Shown here: piece by piece, positions 49,862-62,258 of the stretch
Layout of the letters: each line of letters opens with the position of its first letter
Numbering within the stretch: position 1 is the stretch's first letter
Assembly (NCBI RefSeq): GCF_963976135.1
Contig: NZ_CAXBKN010000001.1
Span: forward strand, 22,885 to 86,884
Reading direction: 5' to 3'
Source of the DNA: an uncultured Maricaulis sp.
GTDB lineage: Bacteria > Pseudomonadota > Alphaproteobacteria > Caulobacterales > Maricaulaceae
Length of the DNA stretch: 64,000 nt
Notes under the pieces: model-generated
The model's input: the letters and a program-made list of their open reading frames with translations, nothing else
Told to the model about the DNA's origin: nothing
Databases searched by the model: none
Position numbers and translations under genes: made by a program

Positions 49862-50302
49862 ATGACGAAACCGATCTACATTCTCAACGGGCCGAACCTG
49901 AATCTCCTCGGCAGTCGCGAGCCGGAAATCTACGGAGCCATGACGCTCGATGATATCGCAGCTGCCTGCGCCGCCCATGCCGGCAAGCTGGGCCAGGTAA
50001 TCGAATTCCGGCAATCCAACCATGAAGGCGTGCTGGTTGACTGGCTGCACGAGGCGAATCTCAAGGCCAGCGCCATCGTCTTCAACCCGGGTGCCTACAC
50101 ACATACATCTGTGGCTTTGCATGACGCGGTTCGCGCGATAGAACCCCCTGTCATTGAAGTTCACTTGAGCCAGACCGCCGCCCGGGAATCTTTCCGGCAC
50201 CACTCCTTCGTCGCCTCTGCAGCCAGAGGCAGCATTACCGGACTTGGTCTGGCAAGTTATCTGCTGGGAATCGACGCAGCATTGCATTGCCTGCATCACT
50301 GA
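49862..50302 (+). CDS. aroQ: Type II 3-dehydroquinate dehydratase
   Basis: [38 protein letters not shown]. Confidence 0.97.
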
Positions 50303-50323
50303 CGGATCCAAAAGGCCCAAATC

Positions 50324-50809
50324 ATGAGTTCTGAGACCCGAAGCCGTTCGCCTATCGACCCTGAAATCGTGCGCGAGCTCGCCGATATCCTGCGCGAAAC
50401 CGATCTGTCGGAAATCGAGGTTGAGCGCGGCGATCTTCGCCTGCGCATCGCCCGCCAGCTGCAGGCCGCCCAAGTGGTGCAGGCTGTCGCCGCACCGGCC
50501 GCCGCCGCTGCCCCGCCAGGCTATGCTGTCGAGACGCCGGGACCGGTCGCCGGCGCCGGTGACCTCAGCGCTCATCCCGGCGTCATCAATTCGCCCATGG
50601 TCGGCACCGCCTATCTGAAACCCAATCCGGAATCAGACAATTTCGTCAAAGTCGGCGAAATGGTAAAAAAGGGCGACACCATCCTGCTGATCGAAGCGAT
50701 GAAAACCTTCAATCCGATCATTGCGGAAAAATCAGGCAAGATTTCGGAAATTCTTGTCGAAGAAGGCCAGCCGGTCGAATTCGGCGAGCCGCTCTTCATC
50801 CTGATCTAA
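50324..50809 (+). CDS. accB: Acetyl-CoA carboxylase biotin carboxyl carrier protein
   Basis: SPMVGTAY, IEAMKTFN biotinylation site, VEFGEPLF. Confidence 0.97.
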   Translation: MSSETRSRSPIDPEIVRELADILRETDLSEIEVERGDLRLRIARQLQAAQVVQAVAAPAAAAAPPGYAVETPGPVAGAGDLSAHPGVINSPMVGTAYLKPNPESDNFVKVGEMVKKGDTILLIEAMKTFNPIIAEKSGKISEILVEEGQPVEFGEPLFILI

Positions 50810-50836
50810 CGCTCACCCCTGCCGCGAGCGCCAAAC

Positions 50837-52183
50837 ATGTTCGATAAAATCCTGATCGCCAATCGCGGCGAAATCGCCCTTCGCATCCACCGGGCGTGCC
50901 GTGAAATGGGCATTCGCACCGTCGCCATCCATTCGGAGGCCGACGCCAATGCCATGCATGTGCGCCTCGCCGACGAGAGTGTCTGCGTCGGCCCGGCTTC
51001 GGCCGCCAAGAGCTATCTCAACATACCCTCCATCATCGCGGCGGCGGAAGTCACCGGCGCCCAGGCGATCCATCCGGGTTATGGCTTCCTGTCTGAAAAT
51101 GCCCGCTTCGCCGAAATCGTCGAGGCTCACGACCTGACCTTTATCGGCCCGACGGCCGCGCATATCCGGATGATGGGCGACAAGATCACCGCCAAGAAGG
51201 CCGTGATGGCTGCCGGGATCCCCGTCGTGCCCGGCTCGGAAGGCGGCGTTTCCAATATCAAGGAAGCCAAGGAAATCGCGGGCGGGATCGGCTACCCCGT
51301 GCTGGTGAAGGCGGCATCGGGTGGCGGCGGTCGCGGCATGAAGGTCGCGGAAAACGAGGAAAAGCTCCAGGAAGCCATGGAGACCGCTTCGGCGGAAGCT
51401 GCGGCGGCCTTTGGCGATGGCACCATTTATCTCGAGAAGTATCTCGGCCGGCCGCGCCATATCGAAATCCAGATCCTCGCCGACATGCACGGCAATGTCG
51501 TGCATCTGGGTGAGCGCGATTGTTCCTTGCAGCGCCGTCACCAGAAAATCCTCGAAGAGGCCCCCTCGCCGGCCCTGACGGCCGAGGAGCGCGCCACGAT
51601 CGGCGAGACCGTGCGCAAGGCGATCGAGGTAATCGGCTATCGCGGCGTCGGCACGATCGAATTTCTCTACGAGAACGGCGAGTTTTATTTCATCGAGATG
51701 AATACGCGCCTGCAGGTCGAACACCCGGTGACCGAAATGATCACCGGCATTGATCTGGTGCGCGAACAGATCCGTGTCGCCGATGGTGCGCATCTCGATA
51801 TCCGCCAGGAAGACATCACGTTTGAAGGCCATTCGATCGAATGCCGGATCAATGCGGAAAACCCCCGCACCTTCGCGCCCTCGCCGGGCAAGATCACCGA
51901 TTTCCATGCGCCAGGCGGGCTCGGTGTGCGGCTCGATTCGGCGCTCTATACCGGCTATTCCGTGCCGCCCTATTATGACAGCCTGATCGGCAAGCTGATC
52001 GTGCATGGCCGCACCCGCGCCGAGGCGCTGCTGCGTCTGCGCCGCTCGCTGGAGGAAATGGTCGTCGGCGGGATTGAGACCTCGATCCCGATCTTCCTCA
52101 ACCTGCTTGAGGAACCGGAATTCGTGAATGGCGATTACCATATCCGCTGGCTGGAAGACTGGCTGGCCAGCCGCGAGGCCTAG
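50837..52183 (+). CDS. accC: Acetyl-CoA carboxylase biotin carboxylase
   Basis: ILIANRGEIA, HPGYGFLSEN, GGGGRGM, EMNTRLQVEHPVTE. Confidence 0.98.
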   Translation: MFDKILIANRGEIALRIHRACREMGIRTVAIHSEADANAMHVRLADESVCVGPASAAKSYLNIPSIIAAAEVTGAQAIHPGYGFLSENARFAEIVEAHDLTFIGPTAAHIRMMGDKITAKKAVMAAGIPVVPGSEGGVSNIKEAKEIAGGIGYPVLVKAASGGGGRGMKVAENEEKLQEAMETASAEAAAAFGDGTIYLEKYLGRPRHIEIQILADMHGNVVHLGERDCSLQRRHQKILEEAPSPALTAEERATIGETVRKAIEVIGYRGVGTIEFLYENGEFYFIEMNTRLQVEHPVTEMITGIDLVREQIRVADGAHLDIRQEDITFEGHSIECRINAENPRTFAPSPGKITDFHAPGGLGVRLDSALYTGYSVPPYYDSLIGKLIVHGRTRAEALLRLRRSLEEMVVGGIETSIPIFLNLLEEPEFVNGDYHIRWLEDWLASREA

Positions 52184-52198
52184 ACAGGCGGAGACTTG

Positions 52199-52867
52199 AT
52201 GCGCGGATTCGGGGCCACAGAACTTCTCGAATGCTACGCCCGCGGGGTCTTCCCGATGGCGGAAGGTCGCGACGATCCACGCATCTACCTGCTCGATCCG
52301 GACGAGCGCGGCATCCTGCCGCTCGATGATTTTCATATCCCGCGCCGATTGCAGCGCACGGTGCGCCAGGAAGTGTTCCAGGTCAGCATCAATCTCGACT
52401 TCCACGCCGTGGTCGCAGGCTGTTGCCAGTCGGCACCGGGCCGCGAGGAGACCTGGATCAATGACGGGATTTTCAGCCTCTATGCCGAGCTGCATCGCCA
52501 GGGCCATGCCCATAGCGTCGAGTGCCGGCGCGGCGGCGAGCTGGTCGGTGGCCTCTATGGCGTCTCACTTGGCGGCGCCTTCTTTGGCGAGAGCATGTTT
52601 TCGCTGGAACGTGATGCCAGCAAAGTCGCGCTGGTACATTTGCTCGCCCGTTTGAACGCCGGCGGCTATGCCCTGCTCGACACCCAGTTTACGACAGAAC
52701 ACCTGGAAACCTTCGGCGCCCACTCGATCACGCGCGATGACTACAAGGCGCGGCTCGCCCGGGCATTGAAACTGGATGGGGATTTCCTGGCGTTACCGGC
52801 GCAGGTCAATGGCCAGGTGGCGCTGCAGCAGGCTCAAGCCTTGCAGTCGAGCACCCAGACATCATAG
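52199..52867 (+). CDS. aat: Leucyl/phenylalanyl-tRNA--protein transferase
   Basis: YARGVFPM, TWIN, LVGGLYGV.LGGAFFGESMFS, DASKVAL, LLDTQF.T.HL. Confidence 0.95.
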   Translation: MRGFGATELLECYARGVFPMAEGRDDPRIYLLDPDERGILPLDDFHIPRRLQRTVRQEVFQVSINLDFHAVVAGCCQSAPGREETWINDGIFSLYAELHRQGHAHSVECRRGGELVGGLYGVSLGGAFFGESMFSLERDASKVALVHLLARLNAGGYALLDTQFTTEHLETFGAHSITRDDYKARLARALKLDGDFLALPAQVNGQVALQQAQALQSSTQTS

Positions 52868-53298
52868 ATCGCGTGCTCAAGTGGGTTTTGTGCCGGCCGC
52901 GAGGCGAACATCCAGCCGGAGAAGACCATCTCGCCCGCAATATCGACGCCAAAGCCATCGGTCCGGCGATCGACGACCTGCAGGAAGGCATAGGTCTCGG
53001 GCGTCTCTTCCGGCGGCCGGCGGCGGCAATACCGGGCTGTGATGGTCAGGGCGCCGAAATCGACACTGTCGCCAATGCGCACTTCAAAATCGCGCGTCCG
53101 CGCTGTCACCTTGTCGAGGCCGCGCAGCACAACAATTGAGCCGGGCTGGCTCGACAATTCCTGGCTTCCCCGCGCCCCGGGATCATCGCCGCGCAGACTG
53201 GCTGCGGGGTCAGACAAATTCCCGGAATTGCCATCCTGGGCCTGCAGGCCAAACGGCAGGCAGGCGGCGAGAGTCAGGGCTGTGAAAAAACGCATCAT
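52834..53298 (-). CDS. DUF2155 domain exported protein
   Basis: Signal peptide, LRGLDKVTART, FSGWMFASRP..NPLEHAIYDVWVLDC. Confidence 0.88.
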   Translation of the reverse strand: MMRFFTALTLAACLPFGLQAQDGNSGNLSDPAASLRGDDPGARGSQELSSQPGSIVVLRGLDKVTARTRDFEVRIGDSVDFGALTITARYCRRRPPEETPETYAFLQVVDRRTDGFGVDIAGEMVFSGWMFASRPAQNPLEHAIYDVWVLDCKA

Positions 53299-53360
53299 GG
53301 CTTGAAACTGCCCCGCGATTAAGGCGCTGTCGAGGCGGTTCGCCCGACAGGCGAACCGTT

Positions 53361-53765
53361 TTATTCCGGCGACCAGGCTTCGTAATCGCCGGTCGAGGAC
53401 TGGCGCTTGCTCGCGGTGACGAGGCTGCCACTGGGCCGGTAGGCATACACCGTACCGGTCAGATTGGGATGATGATCCTTTTCCCAGACCTGACGCGGCA
53501 GCGGCGCTTCGCTGGGTGGCTGATCGAAAGTGTGGTGCAGCCAGCCATGCCAGTCGGACGGCACGCGCGAGGCGTCGGCATAACCCTTATAGATCACCCA
53601 GCGGCGCTTATTGCCGTCCGGACCGGTCACGCCGCTCTCTTCGAAATAGCGATTTCCGTAATCGTCTTCGCCAACCTTTTTGGCACCGCGACGCGAAAGC
53701 GTCAGCAAGGTGCCCGGCGTGGCATCATTCCACCAGATGAAAATCTTGGAGATAAAACCCAACAT
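53361..53765 (-). CDS. NADH:ubiquinone oxidoreductase subunit NDUFA12-like protein
   Basis: VGEDDYGNRYF, RRWVIY.G..DASRVP..WHGWLHH, PNLTGT, GDYEAWSPE. Confidence 0.92.
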   Translation of the reverse strand: MLGFISKIFIWWNDATPGTLLTLSRRGAKKVGEDDYGNRYFEESGVTGPDGNKRRWVIYKGYADASRVPSDWHGWLHHTFDQPPSEAPLPRQVWEKDHHPNLTGTVYAYRPSGSLVTASKRQSSTGDYEAWSPE

Positions 53766-53923
53766 GGCGTGCGGCTCCGAGTCGGTCGCGGCGAGGAATT
53801 CCACCGTATATGCCTTCGCATGGCCATCGGGTCCAGTCTTGAACACTGCGGGGTTATGACGCGCAGCCCGGCGCGGTAGACTGAGGCCAGCTCCGGGCGA
53901 TTCGGGGACCAGAGGGTGGTGTC

Positions 53924-56893
53924 ATGAAACTCAATCGTCGCTTTGCCGAAGCGCTTGCTGCCGCTGGTGACCGCTATGCTTTCGTGTCGCGCGCGGCCGA
54001 TGCCTATGGTGACCCTGACAGCGAGAAGGACGGCGATACCGCCCGCCCGATTACGGTGCCGCAGGACTGGAGCCCGGCGGCCATCCACGCCCTCGCCGAT
54101 CTGCTCGACCAGCCCCGCCCTGTATCGACCCGTCCGCGCCCCGGCCTGCAGGCCTTTGGCGGCCTCTCACCACAGCTGGCCGAAGGCAGCGAGCTGGCGG
54201 CCGAGACGGGTTATGATGCCGTCATCGCGCGCATTGCCGGCTCGCTGACCTGGTCGGTCGCCCGGCATGGCGGGCTCGACAGCCCGGACGAGGCCCCGGT
54301 CTTTCTCGGGGAACTCGCCGCCAGCCTGCGCGGCCGCTATGTCATTCCCGACGCGGAATTATGCCGTCATGGCGGCATTGACTGGGCCTACGGCCTGTCA
54401 GTCCCGGCGGCGGCAATCCGGCCACAAGCCACGACCATTCACGCCGGCAGCGCCGCCGCCCCGGCGCAATTGCGGGGCGTCGCAGAAAGCGCATTGCGCG
54501 GCGGTATGCTCGATGTCGGTGCCCGCGTCACGCGCGACCGGCTGGATGCGATTGCCCAGGCCTGTCACCGCTGCTCCGGTGAGGCCAATGAACGCTTTGA
54601 CCCGCGCCGCAATGCCGCCCTCGCCCGCGCCATGCGGGCCGCCTTGCGTGATGGCGTGGCGGAGGAGGCGGTTGAGCGCGCCCTCGCCCTGGCCCGCCAA
54701 GGCGTCGCTGAAGATGCGCTGACGGATCTGCAGCCGCAGAGCCAGAACCAGCCGGTCACCATACTGCAAATCCCGAACGCGCTGGGCCGCGCCATCGAGG
54801 CCGACGAGACCTGGCAGTTCGGCGGCGATGATGATCCCGGGCGCACCAGTATTCGCGCCCGCGAGCTACGCGACAATATCGCCCGCACGGTGTGGAGTTT
54901 CGGTGCTCCCTCGCTCGCTTTCCAGGCCGGCCCGGCCGCCAGCGGCCCGGCCCTGCATATCAATCTTCCCGCCTTCCTTGAGCCACAGACGGGTTTCCGC
55001 GCCGACCTGCTGGCCGATGCGATGCGGCTCTGGTCCCATGCTCTGACCCTGAGCACCGCCCGGACAGCCGAGACCGCCGGAACGCTTAATCTGACGGGCC
55101 TTGGCGCACTGTTGAGCGCCGGCGGCATGGCCTATGGCAGTCGCGAAGCGCGCGCGGTCGCGGCTGCGATCGGACGGCTGGCCAGCCTGTGCCTGCGCGA
55201 AACCGGCGGCGAGCTTGGTGCCCAGGCCCCCGGCCTCGGCCCCGATCCGGAAACGGGTGAGCTGCCCGGCCCCTTTGCCACACTGACCGCCGAGCTGGAA
55301 CGGGCCTCCTCCCGCTTTGCTCCGCGTTCCGCCCTTGCCCGTCCCGGCCTGACCCTGACCAGCAGCCGGCCCGACCCGGCGATTGCCGGCCTGTTCGACA
55401 ATGACAGCCAGGGTGCGGCCGCGGTCGAAGGCGCGATCATCGCCGATGGCGGCATTTCCGGCGGCCACCGCTTGCGCGATTGTGTACGCGCCGGCCTGCG
55501 CCAGCTCGGCGCCAGTCCGACAGAAATCGAAATCGCCGAGGACCATGCTGCCGGGCACGGCACATTGCGCGGTGCGCCCGGCATATCCGTCGCGGCGCTG
55601 CAACGTGCTGGCTTGCCCGACGCCGCGATTGAACGGGTGGAGGATATAATCGGTGACGGCGCCTCCGTGCGCCATGCGCTCAATCGCTGGACGCTCGGCG
55701 AAGGGGTCTGCCGCGAACAGCTGGGGCTGTCGAGCGCTGTGCTGGAGGCCGAAGGGCGCTCGCTGGCGCGCACGCTCGGCTTTGGCGAGGCCGAGATCGC
55801 TGCGGCCGACCGCCATGCTCATGGCAGCGGCACGCTGGAGGATGCGATTGATCTGCCGCTGGACTGGCGCGCCGTCTTCGCACCGGTCACGCCGCAGGAT
55901 CAGCTGGCCATGAGCGCGGCGCTCGAGAGCCAGATCAACGGGAGTGTCGAGACCCAATTGGCGCTTGATGGCGAGCACACGATTGATGATGTCGCCGCGA
56001 TTCTGGACCGGGCCTCGGCGCTCGGCCTGCGCCAATTGGAAATTCGCCGGACCCGTTCGGGTCTGCTCGACCTCTTGCCGGCGATCGATTTCGACAAGGG
56101 TGATTACACGACCGAGCCGGTCAAGGAACGCCTCATCGAGCGCACGGTCGAGCGCACTGTGGAACGCGTGGTCGAACAACCGGCGGCACGGCGCAAACTG
56201 CCCGACCGGCGCAAGGGCTATATCCAGAAAGCCACCGTCGGCGGCCACAAGGTCTATCTCCACACCGGCGAATTCGATGATGGCGAGGTCGGCGAGATCT
56301 TCATCGACATGCACAAGGAAGGCGCCGCCTTCCGCTCGCTGATGAATAATTTCGCCATCGCCATCTCGATCGGACTGCAATACGGCGTCCCGCTCGAGGA
56401 ATTCGTCGACGCCTTCGTCTTCACCCGCTTCGAGCCGGCCGGCGCTGTGACTGGCAATGATTCCATCCAGCACGCGACTTCGATCCTGGACTATCTCTTC
56501 CGCGAGCTGGGCGTGTCCTATCTCGGACGTGAGGATCTGGCCGAACTCGCGCCGGATACCGCTGATCATGGCGGTATCGGCAAGGGCGTCGCGGAGGAAA
56601 AACTCTCGCAGACCGATGCCGCCCGATTTATTTCCAAAGGCTTCAGCCGCGGCCAGGTGCCCGACAATATCGTGATGTTCGCCAATGCCGCGCGCAAGCT
56701 TGCCAGCGGTCAGGCCGGGGGACCGGATATGGGCGAGATCGAGATGCATCATGCCGAGCCCGCATCGCGGGGCTCGAAGCGTCAGGATGTCAGCCTGTAT
56801 TCCGGCGATCCCTGTCCGGAATGCGGTCATTTCACCGTCGTGCACAGCGAAAATGCGCATCGTTGCGATGCCTGCAACTGGACCTCGGGCTGA
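53924..56893 (+). CDS. Class II (B12-type) ribonucleotide reductase homolog lacking catalytic motifs, with conserved C-terminal TSCPD-type domain and Zn ribbon
   Basis: NrdJ-like remnants (VPQDWS, DWAYG, ACHRC..FDP..N.AL, ARELRDNI..W); RRKLPDRRKGYIQKATVGGHKVYLHTGEFDDGEVGEIFIDMHKEGAAFRSLMNNFAIAIS; CPEC..CDAC. No NPCxE anywhere in the protein. Confidence 0.85.
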   Translation: MKLNRRFAEALAAAGDRYAFVSRAADAYGDPDSEKDGDTARPITVPQDWSPAAIHALADLLDQPRPVSTRPRPGLQAFGGLSPQLAEGSELAAETGYDAVIARIAGSLTWSVARHGGLDSPDEAPVFLGELAASLRGRYVIPDAELCRHGGIDWAYGLSVPAAAIRPQATTIHAGSAAAPAQLRGVAESALRGGMLDVGARVTRDRLDAIAQACHRCSGEANERFDPRRNAALARAMRAALRDGVAEEAVERALALARQGVAEDALTDLQPQSQNQPVTILQIPNALGRAIEADETWQFGGDDDPGRTSIRARELRDNIARTVWSFGAPSLAFQAGPAASGPALHINLPAFLEPQTGFRADLLADAMRLWSHALTLSTARTAETAGTLNLTGLGALLSAGGMAYGSREARAVAAAIGRLASLCLRETGGELGAQAPGLGPDPETGELPGPFATLTAELERASSRFAPRSALARPGLTLTSSRPDPAIAGLFDNDSQGAAAVEGAIIADGGISGGHRLRDCVRAGLRQLGASPTEIEIAEDHAAGHGTLRGAPGISVAALQRAGLPDAAIERVEDIIGDGASVRHALNRWTLGEGVCREQLGLSSAVLEAEGRSLARTLGFGEAEIAAADRHAHGSGTLEDAIDLPLDWRAVFAPVTPQDQLAMSAALESQINGSVETQLALDGEHTIDDVAAILDRASALGLRQLEIRRTRSGLLDLLPAIDFDKGDYTTEPVKERLIERTVERTVERVVEQPAARRKLPDRRKGYIQKATVGGHKVYLHTGEFDDGEVGEIFIDMHKEGAAFRSLMNNFAIAISIGLQYGVPLEEFVDAFVFTRFEPAGAVTGNDSIQHATSILDYLFRELGVSYLGREDLAELAPDTADHGGIGKGVAEEKLSQTDAARFISKGFSRGQVPDNIVMFANAARKLASGQAGGPDMGEIEMHHAEPASRGSKRQDVSLYSGDPCPECGHFTVVHSENAHRCDACNWTSG

Positions 56894-56956
56894 TCAGCCG
56901 TCCGGCCCGGCGCGCAGCTTGCATCGGCCCCTGTATCTGGCTCGGAGCGCCTCATT

Positions 56957-57445
56957 ATGAAACGAATTTTGGCTGCCATCGCGATCTTATTGTCGGCATC
57001 CGCAGGTGCCCACGCCCAGGACGCGGCCCAGATTGCTCGCGTTCAGGCGGGCCAGTCCTGCCCGGGCTGCAACCTATTCCAGGCCGAACTCGGCTATCTT
57101 GACCTGCCGGGTATTGACGTTTCCGGCTCGCGATTGCGCCAGGCCAATCTCGCCCTTTCGACGATGAACCGTGCCAATTTCGACAATGCGAACCTGTCGC
57201 TCGCCAATATGTTCGGCGGCCGTTTCACCAGCGCCAGCTTCCGCAATGCGGATCTCACCGGCGCAGTCCTGGTCGGCGCCTATTTCGGCAGCGCCAATCT
57301 GAGCGGCGCCCAATTGAGCGGCGTCAACATCTCCGGTGCCGAAATGACCACCGCGATCGGCCTGACCCAGAGCCAGCTCAACGGCGCCTGCGGAGACCCG
57401 TCGACCCTGCTCCCGGCCGGATTGCATGTGCGCCCCTGCCGCTAG
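56957..57445 (+). CDS. Exported pentapeptide-repeat protein
   Basis: Signal peptide (AxA), CPGC, A(D/N)LxxA repeats, ACGD...PCR C-terminal cap. Confidence 0.92.
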   Translation: MKRILAAIAILLSASAGAHAQDAAQIARVQAGQSCPGCNLFQAELGYLDLPGIDVSGSRLRQANLALSTMNRANFDNANLSLANMFGGRFTSASFRNADLTGAVLVGAYFGSANLSGAQLSGVNISGAEMTTAIGLTQSQLNGACGDPSTLLPAGLHVRPCR

Positions 57446-57533
57446 ACCATGACCGGCGCGTTGGCCGGTGATGACAGTGGGATTACTGTGATTTAAGTCG
57501 TCACCAGCTGGATCGTGCTTTATCTCTGAACCC

Positions 57534-58772
57534 ATGCGGAACCCCGCCACCATATTGGCTCTCGCCCTGTTGAGCCTCCTGATCGGCACCCAGCCAGGAT
57601 GGGCCGTGGGCGATGACCATCCACGACGCGGACTGGCCATCGGCGGCGAGTGCGAATCCTGTGACTTTTCGGACAAGAATCTCGCGGGAGCGATCTTCAT
57701 CGGCGCCAATTTCGAAGGCTCGACCTTCGCGAATTCGGAGCTGGGCGGCACGACCATTGTCGAGAGCCGCTTTACCGATACCGAATTCACCCACACCATC
57801 TTGACCCATTCCCGGTTAAGTGGCGTCACCTTCCTGCGCGCCGATATGAGTGATGCCGACTTTACCGGTAGCCATATCGAACGCGTCAACTTCTCCGCCG
57901 CCTCGCTGGAAGATACGAATTTCACCGATACGCAAATGGCCTTTGCGACCTTTATCGGCAGCTCGCTGGAAGATGCGGTGTTTGCCAATGCGGTCCTCAA
58001 CCAGGCCAATTTCTTCCGCTCCCAGATCGGCGACGCAAACTTTCGCGGCGCTTCCCTGCGCGGCGCCAACTTCACGGAAACCACCGGCAGTGACACAAGC
58101 TTTCTTGATGCCGACCTGCGCGGGTCGAGTTTCGAGGATGCGGTGCTCGACAACGTCAACTTCACCGGCGCCAATTTGCGTGGCGTCAATTTCACGGCGG
58201 CCGTAATCACCAATGTAACGGGCCTGTCCAAAGAGGCCATGCGCGGCGCCTGCGGCGACGAGGCGACCCGGCTCGATGGCGGTTACGAACTGCCAACCTG
58301 CAACCCGAGCCGCAGCGTCACGGTCGGTGGCGGCGATAATGTCCGCTTTGGCTGGCGCGTCAGCCGTGGCGGCGATCATGGCTCCACAATCCGCCTGGAA
58401 GCCGAGGATGGCCGGATTGTCGAACTCCTGTCAGGCAATGGCGCGGTGCCGAATGTTCGTGGCGAGACCTTCGACGAGGAGACGCTGCGCGGCGTCTCGG
58501 CGGCGGCCTTGCGCGATATTGCCCGCGCTGAGCGTGAAATCCAGCGCGCCCGGATAGAGCAGAGCGAAGCGATCGCCCACACCGAGCGCGAACGCAGCCG
58601 CGCCCTGGCGCTGGCCGAAGCCCGTGCGGAAGCCCATGTCCAGGAAATGGAACGACGTGTGGAAGAATCCCGCCGCCGGGATAGAATGATGATCGAGCTT
58701 CAAGGCGATGGCGAGCACCAGATCTGGCTGAGCCCCAATCCTCACCGTCCACCTCCGCCGCCGGACCATTAA
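57534..58772 (+). CDS. Exported pentapeptide-repeat protein with C-terminal charged helix and polyproline tail
   Basis: Signal peptide, CESC, long run of pentapeptides, ACGD..PTC, E/R/A-rich helix, HRPPPPPDH end. Confidence 0.9.
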   Translation: MRNPATILALALLSLLIGTQPGWAVGDDHPRRGLAIGGECESCDFSDKNLAGAIFIGANFEGSTFANSELGGTTIVESRFTDTEFTHTILTHSRLSGVTFLRADMSDADFTGSHIERVNFSAASLEDTNFTDTQMAFATFIGSSLEDAVFANAVLNQANFFRSQIGDANFRGASLRGANFTETTGSDTSFLDADLRGSSFEDAVLDNVNFTGANLRGVNFTAAVITNVTGLSKEAMRGACGDEATRLDGGYELPTCNPSRSVTVGGGDNVRFGWRVSRGGDHGSTIRLEAEDGRIVELLSGNGAVPNVRGETFDEETLRGVSAAALRDIARAEREIQRARIEQSEAIAHTERERSRALALAEARAEAHVQEMERRVEESRRRDRMMIELQGDGEHQIWLSPNPHRPPPPPDH

Positions 58773-58796
58773 CGCCGGGCGGCGCGCCTGCCCCAT

Positions 58797-58830
58797 AGAA
58801 ACGGCCGGAGTTTGCGCTCCGGCCGTTTCT
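58797..58830. terminator. Bidirectional intrinsic terminator
   Basis: AGAAACGGCCGGAG-TTTGCG-CTCCGGCCGTTTCT 14-bp perfect stem between convergent genes. Confidence 0.88.
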
Positions 58831-58853
58831 CATCCTGGTGCGGGCAAGCCGGC

Positions 58854-60671
58854 CTAACTGGTCTTCTTGGCTTCCGGAATCACATTGCGAATATGCAGTT
58901 CGCGCAATTGCTTCATCTCGACCTCGGCCGGCGCATTCATCATCAGATCGCGCGCCTGCTGGTCTTTCGGGAACATCACGATTTCGCGCAGATTATCGAC
59001 ACCGGCGAGGATCATCACAATGCGGTCGACGCCCGGAGCGATACCGGCGTGCGGCGGCGCGCCATAGCGGAAGGCATTGAGCATGCCGCCGAATTCCTCT
59101 TCCACGGTCGCGGCATCATAACCGGCATGGGCGAAGGCTTTCAGCATCACATCGGGACGGTGGTTGCGCACCGCGCCGGAGGACAGCTCGATACCATTGC
59201 AGACAATGTCATACTGGAAGGCCTTGAGACCGAGCAGGGTCTCATCATCGCCCGCCTCGATCGCCAGAAATTCCTCGGCCGAGATTTGCGGCATCGAGAA
59301 CGGGTTGTGCGAGAAGTCGATCTTCTTGTTGTCTTCATCCCACTCATACATCGGGAAATCGACGATCCAGCAGAATTTGAAGACATTCTTCTCGCAAAGA
59401 TCGAGTTCCTTGCCGACGACATCGCGGGCGCGTCCGGCAAAGCTGGCAAAGGCTTTCGGCTCGCCAGCGGCGAAGAAGACGGCATCGCCGGCCTTGAGGT
59501 CGAGTGAAACCCGCAGGGCTTCGGTGCGTTCCTCACCGATATTCTTGGCGACCGGGCCAGCGGCCTCGAGCACGCCATCGGTCTCGCGCCAGAAGATATA
59601 GCCCATGCCGGGCTGACCATCCTTCTGGGCCCAGGAATTCATCCGGTCACAGAAGGCGCGGCTGCCGCCGGTCGGCGCCGGGATCGCCCAGACGGCGATT
59701 TTCGGATTCTTCTCGATCATGCCGGCGAAGACCTTGAAACCGGAACCGCGGAAGGTCTCGGTGACATCGCTCATCTTGATCGGATTGCGCAGGTCCGGCT
59801 TGTCGGAACCGTACCAGGCCATGGAATCGGCATAGGTGACGCGCTCGAAGGCGGTATTGGGCACGGTGCGACCATCGGCAAATTCGTCGAACAGGCCTTT
59901 CAGCACCGGCTCGATGACATTGAACACGTCTTCCTGGGTCGCGAAGCTCATTTCCATGTCGAGCTGGTAGAATTCGCCAGGTGCGCGGTCGGCGCGGGCG
60001 TCTTCATCGCGGAAACAGGGTGCGATCTGGAAATAGCGATCGAAGCCGGAGACCATGATCAGCTGCTTGAACTGCTGCGGTGCCTGCGGCAGGGCGTAGA
60101 ATTTGCCCGGGTGCAGACGCGAGGGCACGAGGAAATCGCGCGCGCCTTCCGGCGAGGAGGCGGTCAGGATCGGCGTCTGGTATTCGACGAAATCCTCATC
60201 GACCATGCGGCGGCGGATCGAGTCGATGATCTTCGAGCGCAGCACGATGCGCTTGTGCAGGCTTTCACGGCGCAGATCGATATAGCGGTGCTTGAGGCGA
60301 ACCTCTTCCGACCAGTCCGGCTCACCGAAGACGGGCAGCGGCAGCTCCTCCGCTTCCGACTGCACGGCGAGATCGCGCACCCGCACTTCAATCCCGCCGG
60401 TCGGCAGGTTTTCATTGAGCGCCTCGGCATCGCGGGCGACGACATCGCCGGTAATGGTGACGACGCTTTCAACGCGCAAGCGCTCAAGCCGTTCGAAATG
60501 CTCGCTTTCCGGCTCGAGCACGCACTGGGTGATGCCGTAATGATCGCGCAGATCGATAAAGAGCAGGCCGCCATGATCGCGCTTGCGATGGATCCAGCCG
60601 GAAATCCGGGCCGTCTGACCGACTTCACTCGGGCGAAGCTGGCCACAGGTATGGGAGCGATAAGCGTGCAT
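58854..60671 (-). CDS. aspS: Aspartate--tRNA ligase, probably non-discriminating Asp/Asn type
   Basis: [29 protein letters not shown] (His typical of the ND type), [31 protein letters not shown]. Confidence 0.97.
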
Positions 60672-60735
60672 GGTTTTCAAGGTCCGCAATGAGCGTGAAT
60701 GGAGTTGCCGCGACATGCCTGTGGCGGGGCCTCAA

Positions 60736-60741
60736 TGTCAA
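60736..60741 (-). promoter_or_regulatory. Probable -35 element (TTGACA) of the aspS promoter
   Basis: Perfect TTGACA 65 bp upstream of the aspS ATG; the -10 element is weak. Confidence 0.4.
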
Positions 60742-60787
60742 GGATTTGGGGGGAAATGGTGCAGTTGTGACACGCCGCGCATACCCA

Positions 60788-60916
60788 AATCTCCACGCGG
60801 CTGACCGCTGGAGGTTTGAGTGGATCACCTCGCAATGGGAGGTGTGTGGGACGCCGGCGAATGCCGGAGTTGTCGTAAGTTCAGTGGGACATCCATGACG
60901 TCCCACACGTGGAGAT
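60788..60916. ncRNA. Candidate structured RNA or palindromic element (unassigned)
   Basis: Nested inverted repeats and several hairpins between a terminator and the aspS promoter; not recognised as a known family. Confidence 0.35.
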
Positions 60917-60944
60917 GTGGTCGCGCCCCCTTCCCCCAAAACAA

Positions 60945-60973
60945 AAGGCGGCGCCGGGTTCCGGCGCCGCCTT
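60945..60973 (-). terminator. Intrinsic terminator after the His-rich gene
   Basis: AAGGCGGCGCCGG-GTT-CCGGCGCCGCCTT perfect stem; TTTTGTTTT tail on the minus strand. Confidence 0.88.
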
Positions 60974-60994
60974 CGTCATTCAGCTCGGCAAACG

Positions 60995-61369
60995 CTATTC
61001 CTGCGGCTGGTCAACCTCGTGCATATTGTGCTCGCCATGCGGCATATCATCGGCGGCTGAAGCCTCGTCAGCATGGTGTTCGGCATGGGATTCCGGTGCT
61101 GCCCCGGGATGGCGAGCAGCGTGGATCATGTCGTGGCAAGCATCGAACTTGACGCGGGTTTCGTCGTCCATGGCCGCCAGAACGGCGTCGTGAGCGGCCT
61201 GGTCGCCTTCGGCAACATCCGCCATCATTCCATCATACAACGCCAGACACTCTTCCTGTGTCGGTGCTGCGGCAGCCTCGCCGGCCATGTGGTGGTCGAT
61301 GGCAAATGCCGAGGTGCCAATCAGGCTCAGGCTCGACGCTGCCATCATGGCCAAAACGAACTTATTCAT
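60995..61369 (-). CDS. Exported His/Met-rich acidic protein
   Basis: AGGAGA SD, MNKFVLAMMAASSLSLIGTSAFA signal, mature part with 12 His, 7 Met and 2 Cys; own terminator. Confidence 0.85.
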   Translation of the reverse strand: MNKFVLAMMAASSLSLIGTSAFAIDHHMAGEAAAAPTQEECLALYDGMMADVAEGDQAAHDAVLAAMDDETRVKFDACHDMIHAARHPGAAPESHAEHHADEASAADDMPHGEHNMHEVDQPQE

Positions 61370-61542
61370 GGGGGTCTCTCTCCTGGATGACCGATGGGGC
61401 TCGCGCCCCGGATAACCGCCCCGGCCAGTTGCAACGCGGTGTCCGCGCCGACGGTCAGGGCGAGTCACCATGCGCCCGCTCCCGGCCCGGTGACAAGGTC
61501 GATCCGCATACCCACACGAGGCATCACGGCGAAATCGGTGAT

Positions 61543-61607
61543 GTAAGTAACTATTCACTTGCAGTTACGGTCACGCTATGACAAACAGCTTGTGAATGAA
61601 CACTTAC
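61543..61607. promoter_or_regulatory. Pair of inverted 16-bp sites, candidate TetR operators
   Basis: GTAAGT-AACT-ATTCAC (61543-61558) and GTGAAT-GAAC-ACTTAC (61592-61607) are mutual reverse complements outside the 4-bp spacer. Confidence 0.6.
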
Positions 61608-61631
61608 TTCCATGCCAGGCGAGGCCCAGCC

Positions 61632-62258
61632 ATGACCGGAAAACTTCGAGAAGACCTGTTTGAAGGCACCGACCCGAATGTCGGCGTCACGGCGGCGCGC
61701 GGCACGACCAAGGCGCGGATCGAGCGGGCAGCGCTGAAACTCTTCGCCTGCCAGGGCATGGACGGGGTCTCCATCAAGCAGATCGCCCAGGCCTGTGAAA
61801 TCTCGGATGGCGCCATGTATCGCCATTTCAAGAGCAAGGATGCGCTCGCCCGTCTGATGTTCGAGGCGATCCATGCGCGCCTGCTGCAACTGGTCGACGC
61901 CAATATCCGGCCCGATGCCAGCCTGGAAGAAACCGTGCATGCCGTCGTCACCGCCTATTGCGAACTGGCCGAGAACGATCCGGCGCAATTCACTTATCAT
62001 CTCACGCATCGCAACTACTTCCTCGCCGCCTCCGGCGATGGCGGTGCCAATCCGTCAGATGTGATGAGCGCGCGCGTAACCGCCGCGATGGCCAGCGGGG
62101 AAATCCCGGCCCGCGATCCGGAACTGGCCGCCGCAATGGCGCTCGGTCTGGTGATGCAGCCGGCCGAATACCGGATTTTCGGCCGCATCGCACAGCCCAT
62201 GACCGAACTCATCCCGGTTTTCACAACCGCCATCATGGCCGTGCTGCGCGCCGCCTGA
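61632..62258 (+). CDS. TetR/AcrR family transcriptional regulator
   Basis: IERAALKLFACQGMDGVSIKQIAQACEISDGAMYRHFKSKDAL HTH. Start 61632 or 61596. Confidence 0.93.
   Translation: MTGKLREDLFEGTDPNVGVTAARGTTKARIERAALKLFACQGMDGVSIKQIAQACEISDGAMYRHFKSKDALARLMFEAIHARLLQLVDANIRPDASLEETVHAVVTAYCELAENDPAQFTYHLTHRNYFLAASGDGGANPSDVMSARVTAAMASGEIPARDPELAAAMALGLVMQPAEYRIFGRIAQPMTELIPVFTTAIMAVLRAA

What the first reader, a model, noticed from the sequence alone, without database searches (positions are those of the whole stretch)
56189..56893. Selective conservation of the TSCPD-type domain and Zn ribbon on the dead RNR scaffold
Seen: unlike the eroded Ala/Gly-rich core, residues from RRKLPDRRKGY to FRELGVSYLGREDLA look nearly canonical for the NrdJ C-terminal domain, and CPEC/CDAC survive. 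The protein ends ...WTSG*, without the terminal GCS Cys, and SENAH replaces the usual RNGTC. Established: this region corresponds to NrdJb/TSCPD modules that shuttle reducing equivalents to the catalytic subunit. Inference: purifying selection acts on this module even though the redox-shuttle Cys are gone, pointing to a protein-interaction or metal-dependent role, possibly in trans with another RNR or an unknown partner.
Basis: partly seen in the sequence, partly recalled or inferred. Interest (0 to 1): 0.7.

Follow-up and report, generated by a model that had tools for sequence, protein, structure and literature searches.

The report
Conserved tail of dead B12 reductase
The stretch encodes the C-terminal domain and zinc ribbon of a catalytically dead vitamin-B12 ribonucleotide reductase; selection keeps this tail almost unchanged across Caulobacter-type bacteria while the enzyme core has lost its active site, so the tail must do a job other than making DNA building blocks.

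Summary
Window 56189-56893 encodes residues 756-989 of a 989-aa ORF (53924-56893, +).

- **Origin.** The ORF is the positional ortholog of the long alphaproteobacterial NrdJ, but it lacks all three catalytic Cys and the Asn/Glu of the finger loop.
- **Conservation.** The TSCPD (IscU-like) domain is 88% identical to active NrdJ; barrel remnants are 20-30% identical.
- **Selection.** dN/dS is 0-0.03 in the TSCPD domain and 0.1-0.6 in the barrel. Synonymous sites between dead and active genes are near saturation, so this is old purifying selection, not recent transfer.
- **Cysteines.** Of the six tail Cys, 101 of 102 family clusters keep the four assigned in the literature as Zn ligands. None keeps the two assigned as the redox pair.
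- **Spread.** The family covers Maricaulaceae and Caulobacteraceae. In the Caulobacteraceae sample, 134 of 151 genomes carry it and none has an active long NrdJ. It very probably includes C. crescentus CCNA_01966, published as "NrdJ".

The function is unknown. My best inference is a non-redox docking or oligomerisation module inherited from a second role of the NrdJ tail. A role in trans with another NrdJ is unlikely. No paper found describes this family.

The parts
53924..56893 (+). Whole ORF of 989 aa: a catalytically dead positional ortholog of the long-type class II ribonucleotide reductase NrdJ
   Evidence: NCBIfam PRK07562 scores 460 bits against a cut-off of 1737, and only Pfam TSCPD passes its threshold. 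The protein is collinear with R. sphaeroides NrdJ 7b9p. It sits in the same slot as active nrdJ (accC-aat-DUF2155-NDUFA12-[nrdJ]-pentapeptide-aspS). Whole-gene dN/dS is 0.07-0.23.
53854..53923 (+). Promoter-like and 5' leader blocks conserved in Maricaulis orthologs: TTATGA (53854-53859), 17 nt, TAGACT (53877-53882); CCGGGCGATTCGGG (53893-53906); Shine-Dalgarno GAGGGTGG (53912-53919)
   Evidence: Alignment of 12 upstream regions and the sequence itself. No NrdR-type box was found at 3 mismatches or fewer anywhere in the window or at 11/16 matches or more upstream. No Rfam family matches.
54407..54412 (+). Junction (aa 162/163) where about 100 residues of active NrdJ are missing; these hold the PHACFIQ strand with the first redox Cys and the GSG..FS..R loop region
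   Evidence: Alignment of dead and active proteins. The column is a gap in 102 of 102 dead-family clusters and Cys in 19 of 19 active ones.
54509..54709 (+). Insertion 1 (aa 196-262): a helical module with CxxCxG..(C)FDP..N..L, 51% identical to active NrdJ
   Evidence: dN/dS is 0.01-0.10. There is a weak Pfam TACO1_YebC_N echo (E 0.075). The third Cys is Arg in this genome.
54911..54958 (+). Junction (about aa 330-345) where the finger loop NPCSEYMF.DTAC is missing; that loop carries Asn, the thiyl-radical Cys, Glu and the second redox Cys
   Evidence: a gap in 102 of 102 dead clusters at N, C and E, and no Cys at the following redox position.
55514..55894 (+). Insertion 2 (aa 531-657): two helical repeats each holding HG(T/S)L; 38% identical to active NrdJ and deleted in Hyphobacterium members
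55895..56071 (+). Degenerate end of the barrel (aa 658-716): ISKTINMP has become SVETQLAL, and YRDGSK has become RRTRSG
56072..56188 (+). Linker with ER(I/V)VER repeats (aa 717-755), predicted disordered
   Evidence: pLDDT below 50 for aa 712-765; dN/dS 0.005-0.15.
56189..56548 (+). TSCPD / IscU-like domain (aa 756-875), free of Cys and 88% identical to active NrdJ
   Evidence: Pfam PF12637 scores 51.3 bits against a cut-off of 22.8. Identity is and dN/dS 0-0.03. Between dead and active genes dS is 0.66-1.41 and dN/dS 0.06-0.14. 74% of positions are shared invariants. The model has a three-stranded sheet followed by helices.
56627..56668 (+). Linker motif FISKGFSRGQVPDN (aa 902-915), conserved in dead and active proteins; it is the last conserved element in family members that lack the Zn ribbon
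   Evidence: S904, G906, R909 and N915 are invariant in 69 sequences. Proteins of Caulobacter sp. S45, Asticcacaulis and Caulobacter sp. BE254 end shortly after this motif.
56789..56893 (+). Four-Cys Zn ribbon (C964, C967, C981, C984) lacking the redox pair: Ala978 stands in place of Cys 3, and the stop codon comes before Cys 6
   Evidence: 101 of 102 dead clusters keep C1, C2, C4 and C5, none keeps C3 or C6, and 19 of 19 active proteins keep all six. The Cys assignment is from Loderer 2017, PMC5704485. pLDDT is 92-93 in the tail-only model. A Trp after the last Cys (W986) is conserved in the dead family only.

Best explanation
Shown:
- The stretch is the C-terminal module of a pseudo-enzyme. 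The module has four parts: an ER(I/V)VER linker, a Cys-free TSCPD/IscU-like domain, an ISKGFSRG..PDN motif, and a Zn ribbon that keeps its four metal ligands.
- The gene is the in-place descendant of the long B12-dependent ribonucleotide reductase NrdJ.
- On present sampling, one ancestor within Caulobacterales lost the active-site segments, and the redox Cys pair of the tail was lost with them. Class I RNR, present in nearly all these genomes, supplies deoxynucleotides.
- The gene has since been kept under purifying selection across Maricaulaceae and Caulobacteraceae. Selection on the TSCPD domain is about as strong as in active enzymes.

Inferred:
- The tail of long NrdJ has a second function that needs neither catalysis nor disulfide exchange, and this function is why the gene survives.
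- The most likely mechanism is docking or oligomerisation. A folded remnant of the barrel would carry, on two disordered tethers, an interaction domain (TSCPD) and a structural Zn ribbon that bind a conserved partner or each other. This would match the tail-dependent tetramers and hexamers reported for an active NrdJd.
- The partner is unknown.
For: - **Dead enzyme.** PRK07562 scores 460 bits against a cut-off of 1737. The catalytic Cys, Asn and Glu columns are gaps or non-Cys in 102 of 102 clusters.
- **Descent in place.** Active nrdJ of Marinicaulis genomes occupies the same slot. The dead family forms one clan with 100% SH-aLRT support on a long stem.
- **Selection.** dN/dS values by region; identity by region; dS between dead and active TSCPD of 0.66-1.41.
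- **Cys pattern.** The four Zn ligands are kept and the two redox Cys are lost, matching the assignment in PMC5704485.
- **Independence from other NrdJ.** A short intact NrdJ is found in only about a third of the relatives. Class I NrdA is in 40 of 41.
- **Breadth.** 146 of 147 top 50%-identity cluster representatives lack both NPCxE and SKTIN. In the Caulobacteraceae sample 134 of 151 genomes have a match and none exceeds the cut-off. Named Caulobacter species carry dead-type proteins.
- **Architecture.** The N-terminal 710 aa are predicted folded, and the linkers at aa 712-765 and 878-955 disordered.
- **Literature.** The tail of active NrdJd is needed for oligomerisation as well as for electron transfer (PMC5704485). 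The IscU-like domain has no known role and may mediate oligomerisation (PMC9669993).
- **Expression.** CCNA_01966, the probable Caulobacter ortholog, has ribosome-profiling values of about 1,020 and 1,209 in the paper's units, against 3,730 and 6,732 for NrdB.
Against: - No partner, oligomer or phenotype is known, so docking is an argument by elimination.
- The Zn ribbon is dispensable in some Caulobacteraceae. The ribbon's part in any docking therefore cannot be universal.
- The barrel remnant and insertion 1 are also under selection, so the function need not reside in the tail alone.
- IscU-likeness was not significant in my own fold search (E 0.5-0.9).
- Expression of the Maricaulis gene rests on one 180-nt metatranscriptome contig.
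- I never fetched the CCNA_01966 sequence. Its dead status rests on the control line and on named relatives.
Confidence: 0.5

Rival explanations
1. The tail works in trans as an electron-delivery or regulatory subunit, like NrdJb, for another ribonucleotide reductase in the cell.
For: NrdJb-type split enzymes exist, and electron transfer between subunits was shown for NrdJd (PMC5704485; PMC9669993). This genome holds a second, intact NrdJ and a class Ia NrdA.
Against: Both redox Cys are absent in every dead-family cluster, so disulfide exchange is impossible. The short NrdJ has its own TSCPD domain and six-Cys tail and is missing from most genomes that keep the dead gene. A non-redox regulatory contact with class I RNR is not excluded.
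Confidence: 0.12
2. The protein binds nucleic acid and acts as a regulator, using the Zn ribbon, the basic RRKLPDRRKGY and ISKGFSRG segments, and the YebC-like insertion 1.
For: There is a weak Pfam TACO1_YebC_N echo in insertion 1 (E 0.075), and precomputed PF20772 hits occur in several family members. The ribbon resembles the Zn site of tRNA-modifying TiaS (PMC5704485). An RNA polymerase I Zn-ribbon subunit appears among the fold hits, at probability 0.8 but E 0.37.
Against: All these signals are below significance. The ribbon is lost in some lineages. Active NrdJ carries the same modules with no known nucleic-acid role.
Confidence: 0.13
3. The remnant barrel still binds a ligand, such as cobalamin or a nucleotide. 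The protein is then a sensor or carrier, or a new kind of enzyme, and the tail transmits or oligomerises in response.
For: The barrel remnant is under purifying selection (dN/dS 0.1-0.6) and is predicted folded. In NrdJd, dATP and dGTP drive tail-dependent oligomerisation.
Against: The roughly 100 residues that include the loop-1 region next to the effector site are deleted. The PTGT phosphate loop and the SKTIN strand are degenerate. The structural match to NrdJ is only TM 0.50-0.55. Cobalamin contacts could not be assessed with these tools.
Confidence: 0.12
4. The functional product is a standalone C-terminal protein made from an internal start, and the upstream ORF is a decaying leader.
For: Standalone NrdJb and TSCPD proteins exist elsewhere. 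Short representatives of 260-420 aa appear in the representative search, but many are likely fragments.
Against: No in-frame start codon with a Shine-Dalgarno sequence is conserved between aa 664 and 795 in 12 orthologs. The upstream part has dN/dS 0.1-0.3 and no stop codons in 40 genomes. Insertion 1 is itself strongly constrained.
Confidence: 0.04
5. The gene is a pseudogene in decay, and the tail looks conserved only because of recent transfer or gene conversion from an active nrdJ.
For: None beyond the loss of the active site.
Against: Intact ORFs are found in 40 of 41 relatives and in 134 of 151 Caulobacteraceae genomes. Whole-gene dN/dS is 0.07-0.23. dS between dead and active TSCPD is 0.66-1.41. 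Most of these genomes have no active long nrdJ to convert from.
Confidence: 0.01

Closest known systems
Long dimeric class II ribonucleotide reductase of Alphaproteobacteria (NrdJd type; NCBIfam PRK07562; R. sphaeroides structure 7b9p)
   Same: Collinear homology over the whole length, the same genomic slot, the same accessory modules (insertion 1, the HGTL repeats, the ER(I/V)VER linker, the TSCPD domain, the ISKGFSRG motif and the Zn ribbon), and a TSCPD domain 88% identical.
   Different: The first redox Cys strand and the NPCSE finger loop are missing, and the PTGT, SKTIN and YRDGSK motifs are degenerate. Only four of the six tail Cys remain. The score is 460 bits against a cut-off of 1737. 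It cannot be a ribonucleotide reductase.
[quoted passage not shown] 2017, PMC5704485), and the IscU-like domain plus zinc finger of long class II C-termini and NrdJb (Burnim et al. 2022, PMC9669993)
   Same: The same two-part module. The four Cys proposed to bind Zn are kept at the same spacing (C-x2-C, about 13 residues, C-x2-C).
   Different: The two Cys proposed as the electron shuttle (third and sixth) are absent. The module is attached to a dead barrel, whereas NrdJb is encoded by a separate gene. The family therefore acts as a natural mutant that separates the structural Zn site from the redox pair.
Catalytically dead ribonucleotide reductase large-subunit homologs of betaherpesviruses (M45/UL45 type; from my own knowledge, not tested here)
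   Same: An RNR large-subunit fold that lost its catalytic residues and is retained for a non-catalytic, protein-interaction role.
   Different: Those derive from class I, are viral, and owe their new function to an added N-terminal motif. The protein here derives from class II, is chromosomal in free-living bacteria, and its best-conserved part is an ancestral C-terminal domain.
Standalone TSCPD-domain proteins (Pfam PF12637)
   Same: The domain passes the Pfam threshold.
   Different: According to the Pfam description as I recall it, typical members carry four conserved Cys, including the one in the TSCPD motif. Here the motif reads TSILD and the domain has no Cys.

Membership tests
Class II ribonucleotide reductase NrdJ (as an enzyme; NCBIfam PRK07562) | Score above the curated family cut-off | tested here: not met
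   459.6 bits against a cut-off of 1737. The best stretch covers only model positions 713-1222. TIGR02504 scores 19 bits against 400.
Class II ribonucleotide reductase NrdJ (as an enzyme; NCBIfam PRK07562) | Finger loop with Asn, the thiyl-radical Cys and Glu (NPC[SG]E) | tested here: not met
   The segment is absent. These columns are gaps in 102 of 102 dead-family clusters and N/C/E in 19 of 19 active proteins.
Class II ribonucleotide reductase NrdJ (as an enzyme; NCBIfam PRK07562) | Redox-active Cys pair in the barrel | tested here: not met
   The PHAC Cys column is a gap. The second Cys column holds G, P, A or E.
Class II ribonucleotide reductase NrdJ (as an enzyme; NCBIfam PRK07562) | Adenosylcobalamin binding and nucleotide reduction | not testable with these tools
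   This needs purified protein.
NrdJ lineage (descent, not activity) | Collinear homology and orthologous genomic position | tested here: met
   Four collinear alignment pieces to 7b9p; Foldseek top hit 7b9p at E 1e-29; the same neighbours as active nrdJ in two Marinicaulis genomes.
NrdJ C-terminal cysteine-rich domain (CRD; Loderer 2017) | Four Zn-ligand Cys (first, second, fourth and fifth of the array) | tested here: met
   C964, C967, C981 and C984 are present, and are kept in 101 of 102 clusters. Zn binding itself was not tested.
NrdJ C-terminal cysteine-rich domain (CRD; Loderer 2017) | Redox-active pair (third and sixth Cys) | tested here: not met
   Ala978 stands at the third position, and the stop codon comes before the sixth. 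Both Cys are absent from all dead-family clusters.
TSCPD domain (Pfam PF12637) | Score above the Pfam gathering threshold | tested here: met
   51.3 bits against 22.8, over aa 768-862.
IscU-like fold (Burnim 2022) | Structural similarity of the domain to IscU | tested here: inconclusive
   The tail-only AlphaFold model has pLDDT 72-88 in the domain. IscU entries (1q48, 1wfz, 8rmc_D, 5wlw_D) appear only at E 0.5-0.9 with target-normalised TM scores of about 0.3.
NrdJb (split class II subunit) | Encoded as a separate gene or product | tested here: not met
   The module is fused in one 989-aa ORF, and no internal start is conserved.
Pseudoenzyme (general category) | Loss of catalytic residues together with long-term purifying selection | tested here: met

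The most novel reading that the evidence does not exclude
The IscU-like tail of all long alphaproteobacterial NrdJ proteins has a second, selected function that is independent of ribonucleotide reduction and of thiol chemistry. One example would be docking to a conserved partner in DNA-precursor or replication machinery. The dead orthologs of Caulobacterales, including the 'NrdJ' of the model organism C. crescentus, would then be natural separation-of-function alleles that isolate this function.
Probability: 0.35. Interest if true: 0.8.

Novelty: new variant of a known kind. Interest (0 to 1): 0.62.

Why it matters
- **An open question becomes testable.** RNR specialists state that the role of the IscU-like domain in class II enzymes is unknown (PMC9669993). 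This family shows that the domain is constrained about as strongly without catalysis as with it, so its role is not just electron delivery.
- **Independent support for a proposed Cys assignment.** Loss of exactly the third and sixth Cys, with the other four kept in about 100 lineages, supports the Zn-ligand versus redox-pair assignment. That assignment rested on a homology model and partly ambiguous mutants (PMC5704485).
- **Annotation.** These proteins are labelled 'ribonucleotide reductase', 'vitamin B12-dependent ribonucleotide reductase' or 'ribonucleoside-diphosphate reductase alpha chain' in NCBI, UniRef and JGI. CCNA_01966 is drawn as the B12-dependent RNR of C. crescentus in published pathway maps (PMC6538847; bioRxiv 10.1101/2024.08.20.608768). 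If it is dead, B12-dependence inferences for Caulobacterales need correcting.
- **Tractability.** A member very probably sits in a genetically tractable model organism, so the function can be tested directly.

Tried and rejected
- **B12 binding by the TSCPD domain.** I considered this early and dropped it. NrdJd without the tail is active with DTT (PMC5704485), and the 7b9p structure lacks the tail.
- **NrdR control.** No NrdR-type box was found in the window at 3 mismatches or fewer, or upstream of the dead gene at 11/16 matches or more. Active nrdJ of Marinicaulis has a 12/16 box, CCCTATATATAGCGG.
- **Riboswitch or known RNA.** Nothing in Rfam for 50000-62000.
- **Expression.** Public runs gave only a 180-nt metatranscriptome contig at 56468-56647 with one mismatch. 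The depth peak at 56220-56350 in all runs comes from other organisms' conserved TSCPD sequence.
- **Internal start.** None is conserved.
- **Fetching C. crescentus CCNA_01966 itself.** Two related-locus scans, one DNA-pattern scan and two protein searches returned many Caulobacter species, but not strain NA1000 or CB15.
- **Literature.** Searches for 'TSCPD', 'pseudoenzyme' plus RNR, 'Caulobacter nrdJ', CCNA_01966 and CC_1889 found no paper that recognises the dead state.
- **Apparent split nrdJ in genome G028.** The gene lies at two contig ends, so this is most simply an assembly break and not a true split.


Full report
**What is at the coordinates**

The window holds one long ORF, 53924-56893 on the + strand, of 989 aa. 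The finding covers its last 234 codons plus the stop.
- RRKLPDRRKGY begins at aa 756 (nt 56189).
- FRELGVSYLGREDLA ends at aa 873 (nt 56542).
- CPEC is at aa 964 and CDAC at aa 981.
- The ORF ends ...WTSG*.

Only the TSCPD domain passes a Pfam threshold (PF12637, 51 bits, aa 768-862). The RNR N-terminal and barrel models give sub-threshold traces. The NCBIfam model of the long alphaproteobacterial NrdJ (PRK07562) scores 460 bits against a cut-off of 1737, and most of that comes from model positions 713-1222. The protein is collinear with the solved R. sphaeroides NrdJ, 7b9p.

**The enzyme is dead**

I aligned 18 relatives of this protein with 8 active NrdJ of related bacteria. The ORF and its relatives lack three sets of features:
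- About 100 residues that hold the PHACFIQ strand (first redox Cys) and the adjoining loop region.
- The finger loop NPCSEYMF..TAC (Asn, thiyl-radical Cys, Glu, second redox Cys).
- Recognisable PTGT, SKTIN and YRDGSK motifs.

Over 102 dead-type and 19 active 90%-identity clusters the pattern is absolute.

| Region | Identity to active NrdJ | dN/dS among 12 Maricaulis orthologs |
|---|---|---|
| TSCPD (aa 756-875) | 88% | 0-0.03 |
| Insertion 1 (aa 196-262) | 51% | 0.01-0.10 |
| Zn ribbon | 49% | 0-0.26 |
| HGTL-repeat insertion | 38% | 0.10-0.28 |
| Barrel remnants | 20-30% | 0.1-0.6 |
| Whole gene | not computed | 0.07-0.23 |

- Among active NrdJ the TSCPD domain is also the best-conserved part (93%).
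- 74% of TSCPD positions are at least 90% conserved and identical in dead and active proteins, against 2-5% in the barrel.
- Between dead and active genes the TSCPD region has dS 0.66-1.41 and dN/dS 0.06-0.14. The identity therefore reflects old purifying selection, not recent transfer or conversion.

It was tested and is not met.

One correction is needed. The core is not simply eroding. It is under moderate purifying selection, and AlphaFold predicts it folded, with block-mean pLDDT mostly 80-98 over aa 1-710. The linkers at aa 712-765 and 878-955 are predicted disordered. That alignment included active NrdJ sequences, which may inflate the confidence.

**The cysteines**

Loderer et al. (PMC5704485) described six conserved Cys at the end of NrdJd. 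They proposed that the first, second, fourth and fifth bind Zn, and that the third and sixth form the electron shuttle. Active relatives here read CPEC-x10-C-x2-C-x2-C-x5-C-S.

The ORF keeps the first, second, fourth and fifth Cys. It has Ala978 in place of the third and stops before the sixth. Of 102 dead-type clusters, 101 keep the four proposed ligands and none keeps either shuttle Cys. Loss of the shuttle together with the active site, with the metal site retained, is what that model predicts.

**Origin and spread**

- **Gene order.** The order accC-aat-DUF2155-NDUFA12-[this gene]-pentapeptide protein(s)-aspS is conserved. In two genomes of a neighbouring family an active 1,270-1,280-aa nrdJ sits in exactly that slot. 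One of these genomes is a Marinicaulis MAG, identified by its record. The dead gene is therefore the ortholog of nrdJ, not an extra copy.
- **Single clan.** On a tree the dead proteins form one clan with 100% support.
- **Relatives.** 40 of 41 relatives have an intact copy.
- **Representative library.** I searched the tail against 1.84 billion cluster representatives. Of the top 147, 146 (mostly 600-1,000 aa) lack both NPCxE and SKTIN. 119 have a four-Cys twin CxxC, and about a dozen end after the ISKGFSRG..PDN motif with no ribbon.
- **Named records.** These place the proteins in Caulobacteraceae: Brevundimonas, Asticcacaulis, Phenylobacterium and many Caulobacter species, among them C. segnis, C. 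henricii, C. soli and a C. vibrioides MAG.
- **Caulobacteraceae sample.** Of 151 genomes, 134 match PRK07562 at E<=1e-40 and none passes the cut-off.
- **Alphaproteobacteria at large.** 231 of 401 genomes have an active long NrdJ.
- **C. vibrioides.** The tool's control genome of C. vibrioides matches at E<=1e-40 but never passes the cut-off.

**The Caulobacter link**

C. crescentus CCNA_01966 (CC1889) is annotated 'vitamin B12-dependent ribonucleotide reductase' (PMC5869019). It is drawn as NrdJ in a B12 pathway map (PMC6538847) and is listed among RNR genes in a 2024 preprint. Its neighbours' numbering (CC1883-CC1892) fits the conserved gene order. The ribosome-profiling supplement lists it at about 1,020 and 1,209 in the paper's units, against 3,730 and 6,732 for NrdB.

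I could not fetch the strain's own sequence, so its dead status is an inference.

**Other reductases in this genome**

- Contig 54 encodes a class Ia NrdA. This protein is present in 40 of 41 relatives, including those with active NrdJ.
- Contig 11 encodes an intact short NrdJ of 767 aa, with NPCGE, SKTIN, its own TSCPD domain and a full six-Cys tail. It is found in only about a third of the relatives.

The dead gene therefore does not depend on another NrdJ. Class I RNR is the common supplier of deoxynucleotides.

**How it most likely works**

Shown: the gene is a dead ortholog; it has been under long purifying selection, strongest on TSCPD; the Zn ligands are kept and the redox pair is lost; and it does not depend on another NrdJ.

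Inferred: the tail of long NrdJ has a second role that needs neither catalysis nor thiol exchange. The literature offers one candidate. The tail is required for dATP/dGTP-induced tetramers and hexamers of NrdJd, and the IscU-like domain has been proposed to mediate oligomerisation.

The predicted architecture is a folded body with two disordered tethers that carry a compact domain and a small ribbon. This suits a docking or scaffolding protein. I put this reading at about 0.5. Rival readings are a non-redox partnership with class I RNR, nucleic-acid binding, and ligand sensing by the remnant barrel. Each has weak or no direct support.

**What did not work**

- My fold search did not significantly confirm the IscU-like fold.
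- There is no NrdR box, known RNA family or conserved internal start.
- Transcript evidence for this organism is a single short contig.

**Earlier notes of this scan**

I read these after my own family-wide searches. They describe the same family in other genomes and reach the same reading. They are not independent evidence. One of them reports NrdR sites in another genome; I found none here.

**Verdict**

Its suggestion of action in trans is unlikely. I classify the protein as a new variant of a known kind, a pseudo-enzyme derived from class II RNR. I found no paper that describes it.

Noticed in passing
Own genome, contig 11 (locus L002:394-2694, minus strand): An intact short-type NrdJ of 767 aa, with NPCGE, SKTIN, its own TSCPD domain and a six-Cys tail. 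It is present in only about a third of 41 relatives, at 50-93% identity, which suggests gain by transfer or patchy loss.
   Followed up: partly
window 53893-53906: CCGGGCGATTCGGG in the 5' leader of the dead gene is nearly invariant in 12 Maricaulis orthologs and can form a short hairpin. No Rfam match; function unknown.
   Followed up: partly
window 56957-58772, and loci L021-L031: One or two exported pentapeptide-repeat genes follow nrdJ in the same orientation across the order, behind active as well as dead nrdJ. The linkage therefore predates the loss of catalysis.
   Followed up: partly
window 54560-54600 (aa 214-226): Insertion 1 carries C-x2-C-x-G..CFDP in active NrdJ and in most dead proteins. 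In this genome's clade the third Cys is Arg (ERFDP; 16 of 102 clusters), and the first Cys is Val or Ile in 30 of 102 clusters. This is a possible second, decaying metal site.
   Followed up: partly
Loci L112/L057 (Caulobacter sp. S45), L040 (Asticcacaulis), L209 (Caulobacter sp. BE254): These family members end shortly after the ISKGFSRG..PDN motif and have no Zn ribbon, so the ribbon is dispensable in some lineages.
   Followed up: partly
Proteins P0056, P0062, P0075, P0125 (Hyphobacterium, 703-770 aa): In these members the HGTL-repeat insertion (aa 531-657 here) is deleted, while insertion 1 and the tail are kept. The family is being trimmed step by step around a constant core.
   Followed up: no
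window 56072-56188 (aa 734-755): The ER(I/V)VER repeat linker before the TSCPD domain has one more repeat here (ERLIERTVERTVERVVEQ) than in most relatives.
   Followed up: no
Class-wide sample (genomes G048, G232, G118, G411, G154, G312, G427, G183, G332, G184, G340, G348): Several other alphaproteobacterial families, some with genomes of 1.2-1.6 Mb, have only sub-cut-off matches to PRK07562 (E 1e-49 to 1e-128). These may be further, possibly independent, dead NrdJ lineages or other NrdJ subclasses.
   Followed up: no
window 54866-56860, minus strand: A 664-aa antisense open frame overlaps the gene. This is the usual artefact of high G+C content and is not evidence of a gene.
   Followed up: no
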